From Escherichia coli (GTDB lineage Bacteria; Pseudomonadota; Gammaproteobacteria; Enterobacterales; Enterobacteriaceae), in the NCBI RefSeq assembly GCF_046105845.1, contig NZ_CP151004.1: a DNA stretch of 64,000 nucleotides. One strand, written 5' to 3'. This document shows, one piece after another, positions 53,627-53,661 of the stretch. The notes below the pieces were generated by a model. The model saw only the letters and a program-made list of their open reading frames with translations. It was not told where the DNA came from and did not search any database. How positions within the stretch are numbered: the first letter of the stretch is position 1; each line of letters opens with the position of its first letter. A program made the translations under genes and the position numbers.

Positions 53627-53661
53627 CGTACTGTCAGAGAAATCAGTGCTCTGACAGTACG
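53627..53661. terminator. 13-bp perfect inverted repeat (CGTACTGTCAGAG / CTCTGACAGTACG) between yncL (+) and patD (-)
   Basis: Read from sequence; 9-nt loop; lies between convergent genes; no strong T-tract. Confidence 0.45.

What the first reader, a model, noticed from the sequence alone, without database searches (positions are those of the whole stretch)
53627..53661. 13-bp perfect inverted repeat between yncL and patD
CGTACTGTCAGAG-N9-CTCTGACAGTACG forms a long perfect stem without a T-run. It may act as a bidirectional terminator or RNase-protective hairpin for the convergent transcripts, or as a protein-binding dyad.
Basis: seen in the sequence. Interest (0 to 1): 0.2.

Follow-up and report, generated by a model that had tools for sequence, protein, structure and literature searches.

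The report
Protective 3'-end hairpin of yncL mRNA
The perfect 13-bp inverted repeat is real and forms the stem-loop that caps the 3' end of the small stress-protein mRNA yncL; this is an ordinary kind of RNA-stabilising hairpin, and published 3'-end maps of E. coli already record it.

Summary
Arms 53627-53639 and 53649-53661 are perfectly complementary with a 9-nt loop and no T-run. The hairpin folds at about -22 kcal/mol on either strand. It is the longest perfect hairpin in the window (about 0.02 expected by chance).

It is the 3'-terminal stem-loop of the yncL mRNA. Published Term-seq (Adams 2021) puts a very strong 3' end 3 nt after the stem on the yncL strand (window 53664). A second study (TRS, 2023) lists the same site as the "primary" yncL terminus and prints this hairpin.

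The same Adams data show bicyclomycin-sensitive read-through into antisense patD, and the downstream sequence is C-rich and G-poor. This fits the class described by Dar and Sorek (2018): Rho terminates downstream, and 3' exonucleases trim back to a U-less protective hairpin.

Across Escherichia and Citrobacter the stem keeps its pairing through compensatory changes, while loop sequence and length vary. Where other DNA separates the two genes, the hairpin stays with yncL.

Use by patD (the "bidirectional" idea) is plausible but untested. A protein-binding dyad is not supported. The feature is low in interest and essentially already catalogued.

The parts
53473..53478 (+). Predicted -10 element (CTATAC) of the yncL promoter; the transcript start is expected near 53485
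   Evidence: This is an inference. The motif CCGTACTATAC is conserved upstream of yncL in Escherichia and Citrobacter. Sigma-S-dependent expression and a -10 element were reported for the Salmonella orthologue STnc1110/yncL (PMC5437024). No 5'-end data were examined here.
53509..53604 (+). yncL coding sequence (31 aa, MNVSSRTVVLINVFAAVGLFTLISMRFGWFI)
   Evidence: ORF listing. RefSeq annotates it as 'stress response membrane protein YncL' in identical E. coli DNA.
53627..53639 (+). Left arm of the hairpin (CGTACTGTCAGAG)
   Evidence: covariation.
53640..53648 (+). Loop (AAATCAGTG), variable in sequence and length among relatives
53649..53661 (+). Right arm of the hairpin (CTCTGACAGTACG)
53664..53664 (+). 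Mapped steady-state RNA 3' end of the yncL transcript, 3 nt after the stem (MG1655 coordinate 1517039, minus strand)
   Evidence: Adams et al. 2021 Supplementary file 1 lists it three times, taken as once per growth-condition sheet. The two read counts I saw were 75,265 and 536,300. The 61-mer maps to window 53614-53674, placing the 3' end at 53664. The TRS paper lists 1517026-1517042, peak 1517034 (window 53669), as the 'yncL Primary' terminus with this hairpin and a maximum U-tract of 2.
53662..53711 (+). C-rich, G-poor tract just after the hairpin (11 C, 4 G in 50 nt); candidate Rho loading (rut) region
   Evidence: Composition. C exceeds G in the 60 nt after the hairpin in 16 of 17 orthologous contexts. 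Dar and Sorek 2018 report C-over-G enrichment and rut sites just downstream of such hairpins. Assigning it as a rut site is an inference.
53950..53950 (+). Peak of the bicyclomycin-sensitive (Rho-dependent) termination region on the yncL-sense strand, antisense to patD (MG1655 1516753, minus strand)
   Evidence: Adams et al. 2021 Supplementary file 2: without BCM 220 reads upstream and 9 downstream; with BCM 106 and 72; Rho score 16.6, p = 5e-21. The resolution is coarse (800-nt windows). The coordinate was converted from the yncL stop at 1517099.
53701..55125 (-). patD (gamma-aminobutyraldehyde dehydrogenase), the convergent neighbour; its stop codon lies 39 nt from the hairpin

Best explanation
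The inverted repeat encodes the 3'-terminal stem-loop of the short, roughly 180-nt yncL mRNA. RNA polymerase transcribing yncL does not stop efficiently at this U-less hairpin. It runs on into the antisense strand of patD, where Rho terminates it within a few hundred nucleotides, probably after loading on the C-rich, G-poor RNA just past the hairpin. 3'-to-5' exonucleases (PNPase and RNase II in the published model) then trim the unstructured tail back until the 13-bp stem blocks them. This leaves a precise, stable 3' end about 3 nt past the stem and protects the short mRNA from decay. What is shown: the hairpin exists, the exact 3' end is there, read-through depends on Rho, and the structure is conserved. 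What is inferred: the order of events and which exonucleases act.
For: (1) Term-seq places a precise 3' end 3 nt after the stem on the yncL strand. It is listed three times in the three-condition table, and the two read counts I saw were 75,265 and 536,300. (2) An independent study calls the same site the primary yncL 3' terminus, prints this hairpin (-21.6 kcal/mol) and scores a maximum U-tract of 2. (3) Rho dependence: read coverage downstream relative to upstream rises from 9/220 to 72/106 with bicyclomycin (Rho score 16.6, p = 5e-21) on this strand, about 290 nt downstream. (4) No U-tract is present, and C exceeds G downstream (C/G 2.75 in the first 50 nt). This matches the class defined by Dar and Sorek 2018. 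(5) In 20 Escherichia and Citrobacter orthologues, 7 of 15 stem pairs show changes on both sides that keep pairing. The covariation score is 0.207 against 0.092 in shuffles (0 of 500 reach it) and at most 0.131 in slid controls. The loop varies from 3 to 9 nt. (6) Superficieibacter-type loci carry an unrelated GC-rich, U-less hairpin at the same distance from the yncL stop. (7) In the 1159 E. coli genomes, and in the C. freundii-group loci, where other DNA separates yncL from patD, the hairpin stays next to yncL. (8) The four divergent E. coli variants I inspected change only the loop or the flanks, never the stem.
Against: The bicyclomycin data use 800-nt windows, so part of the drug-induced antisense signal could start from other promoters inside patD. 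A weak promoter-like match overlaps the right arm, though at chance frequency. No exonuclease-mutant or in vitro termination data for this site were available, so partial Rho-independent termination at the hairpin is not excluded. The core CAGAG/CTCTG pairs never vary, so they carry no covariation evidence. The number of independent compensatory events is small, about 5-7. The rho-dependence table of Dar and Sorek, which might list yncL directly, is not held.
Confidence: 0.72

Rival explanations
1. The hairpin is a U-tract-less intrinsic (Rho-independent) terminator. It alone makes RNA polymerase release the yncL transcript at this point.
For: The stem is stable and perfect. The 3' end is sharp and very abundant just after it. 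Without bicyclomycin only about 4% of coverage continues downstream.
Against: The first 8 nt after the stem (CAAGAUCU) hold only 2 U, the TRS table scores a maximum U-tract of 2, and the consensus scan does not call the site. The end lies at +3, not at the +7 to +9 typical of hairpin-driven release (established knowledge of intrinsic terminators). Bicyclomycin raises downstream coverage about 16-fold, which a self-sufficient terminator would not allow.
Confidence: 0.15
2. The hairpin is shared. Besides yncL, it also defines and protects the 3' end of the convergent patD mRNA, because the palindrome folds equally well in both transcripts. This would be additional to the yncL role, not an alternative to it.
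For: The minus-strand RNA folds at -22.5 kcal/mol. Where patD and yncL are adjacent (window, L004, L106 E. marmotae, L107 Citrobacter) it is the only stable hairpin between the two stop codons. Where they are separated, patD has its own hairpin (L001 stem plus TCGTTTT, L005 canonical terminator, L022 stem). ExcludonFinder lists patD-yncL as overlapping convergent transcripts. C also exceeds G on the patD-sense side.
Against: The Adams Term-seq tables list no patD-sense 3' end here, and the TRS supplementary files do not mention patD. patD may simply be poorly expressed in the conditions used. The flanks lack the A-tract and U-tract of canonical bidirectional terminators. The hairpin follows yncL, not patD, when the genes are split.
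Confidence: 0.35
3. The repeat is a double-stranded DNA operator: a dyad-symmetric binding site for a dimeric regulator of yncL or patD.
For: The dyad symmetry is perfect and the core CAGAG/CTCTG is invariant among Escherichia and Citrobacter.
Against: The site lies downstream of both genes, not at a promoter. The spacing between half-sites varies from 3 to 9 nt, and the outer positions change in a compensatory way. Another lineage has an unrelated hairpin at the same position. The motif is single-copy in the genome. An RNA 3' end maps exactly at its base.
Confidence: 0.03
4. The repeat is a chance palindrome or a copy of a dispersed repeat such as REP/BIME, with no function of its own.
For: None, beyond its location in an intergenic region.
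Against: Simulations give 0.017 such repeats per window. It is single-copy per genome. Its structure is conserved with covariation. A strong RNA 3' end maps to it.
Confidence: 0.01

Closest known systems
Protective 3' stem-loops of Rho-dependent transcripts (Dar and Sorek 2018, NAR 46:6797; PMC6061677)
   Same: The stem-loop is energetically stable with no U-rich tail and no upstream A-tract. The steady-state 3' end lies just downstream of the stem. Read-through is bicyclomycin-dependent, and C exceeds G downstream.
   Different: Nothing structural differs. The stem is unusually perfect (13 of 13 pairs), and it sits between convergent genes, so the read-through is antisense to patD. Protection from PNPase and RNase II was not tested for this site.
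Canonical intrinsic (Rho-independent) terminators, including bidirectional ones between convergent genes
   Same: The hairpin has terminator-like size and energy, lies 22 nt after a stop codon between convergent genes, and has a sharp RNA 3' end.
   Different: There is no U-tract on either strand and no flanking A-tract. The 9-nt loop is longer than typical. The 3' end lies at +3. Downstream read-through is sensitive to Rho inhibition.
STnc1110, the Salmonella 'sRNA' that carries the yncL orthologue (PMC5437024)
   Same: It is a short, discrete, sigma-S-dependent transcript containing the yncL ORF. The E. coli yncL mRNA, bounded by this hairpin, is its counterpart.
   Different: I could not retrieve a Salmonella yncL locus to see whether its 3' end carries a homologous hairpin. 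The one Salmonella patD locus sampled lacks yncL.
Convergent-gene excludons (ExcludonFinder, PMC12288877)
   Same: patD-yncL is listed there as an overlapping convergent pair, which fits yncL read-through into antisense patD.
   Different: An excludon is a property of transcript overlap, not of the hairpin. The 13-bp stem on its own is shorter than the roughly 20 bp usually cited for RNase III substrates (my own knowledge, not tested).

Membership tests
Rho-dependent transcript 3'-end protective stem-loop (Dar and Sorek class) | Precise steady-state RNA 3' end just downstream of a stable stem-loop | tested here: met
   Term-seq places the 3' end at +3 from the stem. The TRS interval spans +1 to +16 with its peak at +8. 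The hairpin folds at -21.6 kcal/mol.
Rho-dependent transcript 3'-end protective stem-loop (Dar and Sorek class) | No U-rich tract after the stem and no A-tract before it | tested here: met
   The tail is CAAGAUCUUC and the upstream flank is GCACGCAGCA. The TRS table scores a maximum U-tract of 2. The consensus terminator scan does not call the site.
Rho-dependent transcript 3'-end protective stem-loop (Dar and Sorek class) | Bicyclomycin-dependent read-through beyond the 3' end (above 30% in their classification) | tested here: met
   Adams Supplementary file 2: downstream/upstream coverage is 9/220 without BCM and 72/106 with BCM, Rho score 16.6, p = 5e-21. The metric differs from theirs (800-nt windows centred about 290 nt downstream), so it is met in spirit but not measured by the identical statistic.
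Rho-dependent transcript 3'-end protective stem-loop (Dar and Sorek class) | Cytosine-over-guanosine enrichment downstream (rut-like) | tested here: met
   C/G is 2.75 in the first 50 nt and about 1.45 over 300 nt. C exceeds G in 16 of 17 orthologous contexts.
Rho-dependent transcript 3'-end protective stem-loop (Dar and Sorek class) | The stem-loop protects the transcript from PNPase and RNase II | not testable with these tools
   This needs RNA 3'-end or half-life data in pnp and rnb mutants or with stem mutants.
Intrinsic (Rho-independent) terminator | G+C-rich stem with a short loop | tested here: inconclusive
   The stem has 13 bp, 7 of them G-C. The 9-nt loop exceeds the 3-8 nt accepted by the scan.
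Intrinsic (Rho-independent) terminator | U-tract immediately 3' of the stem | tested here: not met
Bidirectional intrinsic terminator | A-tract 5' and U-tract 3' of the stem, so that both strands read hairpin plus U-tract; 3' ends on both strands | tested here: not met
   Neither flank is A-rich or T-rich. The Adams tables list only the yncL-sense 3' end, and the TRS supplementary files do not mention patD. patD expression in those conditions is unknown.
Dispersed intergenic repeats (REP/BIME and the like) | Many copies per genome | tested here: not met
   One place per genome in 5411 genomes. The arm is unique in the window. There is no Rfam match.
Palindromic protein operator | Conserved half-site sequence at fixed spacing, placed at a promoter | tested here: not met
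   Spacing varies from 3 to 9 nt and outer positions covary. The site lies downstream of both genes.

The most novel reading that the evidence does not exclude
The hairpin-capped yncL 3' UTR (about 40-60 nt) may accumulate as a stable RNA species of its own and act in trans or as an Hfq-associated sponge, rather than being only the tail of the mRNA. The hints are weak. The Term-seq 3'-end count reaches 536,300 in one condition. The TRS 3'UTR-versus-CDS table gives yncL 3' UTR coverage of 0.47-0.83 against CDS coverage of 0.09-0.17. yncL RNA also appears in Hfq-linked RNA-RNA interaction maps, with RprA and KilS as partners. My evidence does not exclude this reading, but nothing shows a 5' processed end or a target.
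Probability: 0.08. Interest if true: 0.45.

Novelty: already known. Interest (0 to 1): 0.13.

Why it matters
The finding matters little beyond annotation. It shows that the Term-seq peak labelled "antisense patD" in one published table is really the yncL mRNA 3' end. It also gives a clean, conserved example of a U-less protective hairpin downstream of a 31-codon gene, which could serve as a test case for how Rho-terminated small-protein mRNAs are stabilised. The natural polymorphism, with about 21% of E. coli strains carrying an insertion that separates patD from the hairpin, offers a ready-made comparison for asking whether convergent genes share one protective hairpin.

Tried and rejected
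- **Rfam scan:** a permissive scan of 53000-54200 found no family at the hairpin, only a chance-level STnc320 hit inside ortT.
- **Terminator and promoter scan:** the hairpin was not flagged, and the promoter-like hits were at chance frequency.
- **Salmonella, Enterobacter and Trabulsiella via YdcY synteny:** synteny is broken and no yncL was found.
- **Salmonella via PatD:** the sampled strain has no yncL near patD, so the STnc1110 3' end could not be compared.
- **Supplements not held as text:** Dar and Sorek 2018, Stead 2011 and Choe 2022.
- **TERMITe supplements:** the site is not listed.
- **Ju et al. 2019 (bidirectional terminators):** the paper is not in the library.
- **LexA-box idea (CTGT...ACAG):** rejected on reading the sequence, because the spacing is 19 nt rather than 8.
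- **integron attC or mobile-element end:** considered because of the adjacent insertion polymorphism. Rejected because the hairpin is present, unchanged and next to yncL in both the insertion-bearing and insertion-free genomes, and the insertion junction lies about 50 nt away at the patD stop.

Full report
**Observation**

The window reads CGTACTGTCAGAG (53627-53639), AAATCAGTG (53640-53648), CTCTGACAGTACG (53649-53661).

It lies between two convergent genes:
- yncL, + strand, 53509-53604, stop codon TGA at 53602-53604.
- patD, - strand, 53701-55125.

These identities are confirmed by the ORF list and by RefSeq annotation of identical E. coli DNA. Neither flank carries a T-run, and the consensus terminator scan does not flag the site.

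As RNA the hairpin folds at -21.6 kcal/mol on the + strand and -22.5 kcal/mol on the - strand, with z-scores of -5.0 and -4.4 against dinucleotide shuffles. It is the longest perfect hairpin-type repeat in the 64-kb window. Markov simulations give 0.017 repeats of at least 13 bp per window. The arm occurs nowhere else in the window. The 65-nt segment around it is single-copy in 5411 of 5426 complete E. coli genomes. It is therefore real, not chance, and not a dispersed repeat. Rfam has no family for it.

**Direct transcript evidence from the literature**

*Adams et al. 2021 (eLife, PMC7815308), Supplementary file 1.* This lists a Term-seq 3' end at MG1655 coordinate 1517039, minus strand. The surrounding sequence is TTTGCACGCAGCACGTACTGTCAGAGAAATCAGTGCTCTGACAGTACGCA[A]GATCATCTCA. 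The coordinate appears three times in a table with three growth-condition sheets. The two read counts I saw were 75,265 and 536,300.

The table's sequences are 61 nt long. Checking the tRNA entries aspU and aspV against my recollection of their gene coordinates places the 3' end at nucleotide 51. That 61-mer maps to window 53614-53674 with one mismatch, so the 3' end is window 53664, 3 nt past the last stem pair, on the yncL-sense strand. The authors labelled it "antisense patD", presumably because yncL was absent from their annotation.

*TRS paper (Nat Commun 2023, PMC10687069).* This lists the interval 1517026-1517042 with its peak at 1517034/5 as the "Primary" 3' terminus of yncL. It prints exactly this hairpin with -21.6 kcal/mol and scores the longest U stretch as 2. 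The yncL coordinates given there (1517099-1517194) agree with my coordinate conversion.

The hairpin is the 3' end of the yncL mRNA. No patD-sense 3' end appears in the Adams tables, and the TRS supplementary files do not mention patD.

**How the end is made**

The tail after the stem, CAAGAUCUUCUC, is not a U-tract, and the end lies at +3 rather than at the +7 to +9 of hairpin-driven release.

Adams Supplementary file 2 lists a Rho termination region on the same strand at 1516753, which corresponds to window position about 53950, 286 nt downstream and antisense to patD:

| Condition | Reads upstream | Reads downstream |
|---|---|---|
| Without bicyclomycin | 220 | 9 |
| With bicyclomycin | 106 | 72 |

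The Rho score is 16.6 with p = 5e-21.

The RNA just past the hairpin is C-rich and G-poor. It has 11 C and 4 G in the first 50 nt, and a C/G ratio of about 1.45 over 300 nt.

The most likely mechanism is therefore as follows. Polymerase reads through the hairpin, Rho terminates within the next few hundred nucleotides, and exonucleases trim back to the stem, which then stabilises the roughly 180-nt mRNA. The 3' end, the Rho sensitivity and the composition are shown. The trimming step and the enzymes are inferred by analogy.

**Comparative evidence**

I collected yncL loci from three sources:
- a PatD-anchored scan of species-representative genomes;
- a degenerate DNA pattern scan of metagenomes;
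- look-ups of PatD orthologues.

Every yncL found has a stable hairpin 11-33 nt after its stop codon. None of these hairpins is followed by a T-run (2-5 T among the first 10 nt). In 16 of 17 contexts C exceeds G in the next 60 nt.

In a 20-sequence Escherichia and Citrobacter alignment:
- Ten pairs form a consensus stem.
- 7 of 15 pairs of the extended stem show changes on both sides that keep pairing, for example U:A to C:G, G:C to U:A, and U:A to A:U in two separate lineages.
- The covariation score is 0.207, against 0.092 for shuffles (0 of 500 reach it) and at most 0.131 for slid controls.
- Loop sequence and length vary freely, from 3 to 9 nt.

Two Superficieibacter-type loci carry an unrelated GC-rich, U-less hairpin at the same distance from the stop. 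The four divergent E. coli variants I inspected change the loop, or add a pair at the stem base, but never break the stem.

This pattern argues for selection on RNA structure. It argues against a sequence-specific DNA operator, which would keep its half-site sequence and spacing.

Two caveats apply. The five central pairs never vary and so are uninformative, and the independent compensatory events are few.

**yncL versus patD**

In 1159 of 5426 E. coli genomes a 1.3-kb low-GC segment encoding a CatB-related O-acetyltransferase lies between the hairpin and patD. In C. freundii-group loci about 2.3 kb of other genes lies there. In all of these the hairpin stays 22-33 nt from the yncL stop, so its primary association is with yncL.

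In those split arrangements, and in E. albertii and Superficieibacter, patD has its own 3' hairpin: a stem plus TCGTTTT in L001, a canonical terminator in L005, and a stem in L022. Where the genes are adjacent (window, L004, L106, L107), the shared palindrome is the only hairpin between the two stop codons.

Together with the ExcludonFinder listing of patD-yncL as overlapping convergent transcripts, this makes shared use by patD plausible. No patD 3'-end data support it, and the flanks do not fit a canonical bidirectional intrinsic terminator.

**Context of yncL**

In Salmonella the yncL orthologue lies inside the short sigma-S-dependent transcript first called sRNA STnc1110. This fits a discrete small mRNA bounded by a promoter and this hairpin. 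A conserved CTATAC -10-like element lies at 53473-53478; treating it as the promoter is an inference.

I could not obtain a Salmonella yncL locus for comparison.

**Verdict**

- The hairpin is an RNase-protective 3' hairpin, shown for yncL.
- It is not a canonical terminator.
- Bidirectional use is untested.
- It is not a protein-binding dyad.

The element belongs to a well-described class, and published supplementary tables already list it as the yncL 3' terminus. Its novelty is therefore nil to minimal and its interest is low.

Noticed in passing
window 53690-53712; L001 4290-5645: 1159 of 5426 complete E. coli genomes carry a roughly 1.3-kb low-GC (29-37%) insertion between the yncL hairpin and patD, encoding a CatB-related O-acetyltransferase. 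The junctions carry imperfect direct repeats of the patD stop region: ATTATCCTTAATATTTAC on the yncL side and CTTAATGTTTAACCAT at patD. This suggests insertion (or deletion) exactly at the patD stop codon.
   Followed up: partly
L006, L008, L009 (about 4430-6750); L005 4425-5481; L022 4425-5570: Other species have different cargo at the same patD/yncL junction. C. freundii-group loci have about 2.3 kb holding two ORFs of 375 and 261 aa (not run against any family library). E. albertii and Superficieibacter have other ORFs. The Citrobacter loci keep a remnant (AAATTATCCTTAATATGTAAC) resembling the E. coli patD stop region right after the yncL hairpin. The junction looks like a recurrent insertion hot spot.
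   Followed up: partly
L002 2248-2945: In E. coli strain LAM_HS an IS1A element occupies the place of yncL and the hairpin. Only the patD-proximal 108 nt of the query match.
   Followed up: no
window 17596-17623: This is a 12-bp perfect inverted repeat (AAACACCATTGC-CTGC-GCAATGGTGTTT) followed by a T-run, and it looks like a canonical terminator. Its sequence matches an 'orphan' Term-seq 3' end in Adams et al. (MG1655 1555765, minus strand, 535,854 reads). Other perfect repeats of 11-12 bp lie at 20968-20995, 5893-5927, 29517-29542, 4449-4475, 2754-2781 and 61365-61405. The window holds 8 repeats of at least 11 bp, against 0.25 expected.
   Followed up: no
window 53604-53669 (yncL 3' UTR): The TRS paper's 3'UTR-versus-CDS table gives yncL 3' UTR coverage of 0.47-0.83 against CDS coverage of 0.09-0.17. 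This hints that hairpin-protected 3' fragments outlast the coding part of the mRNA. Counts are low and the column meanings were only partly checked.
   Followed up: no
window 53500-53511: The mechanical ORF for yncL starts at a GTG three codons upstream of the ATG (MAKMNVSS...). The Salmonella paper makes the same remark about the annotated GTG start of STM14_1932.
   Followed up: no
L105 7258-7706; L101-L104: The sampled Salmonella enterica locus has two tandem OrtT/GhoT-family genes and no yncL near patD. In Salmonella, Enterobacter and Trabulsiella, ydcY is no longer next to ortT and yncL, so the K-12 gene order ydcY-ortT-yncL-patD is not general.
   Followed up: partly
window 53342-53368 (+ strand), inside ortT: A terminator-like hairpin plus T-run (ACGCGCGCAAATATGCGT CATTTTTTGA) lies on the + strand, antisense to the start of ortT. 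Adams et al. list an 'orphan' 3' end nearby at MG1655 1517357, but on the opposite strand.
   Followed up: no
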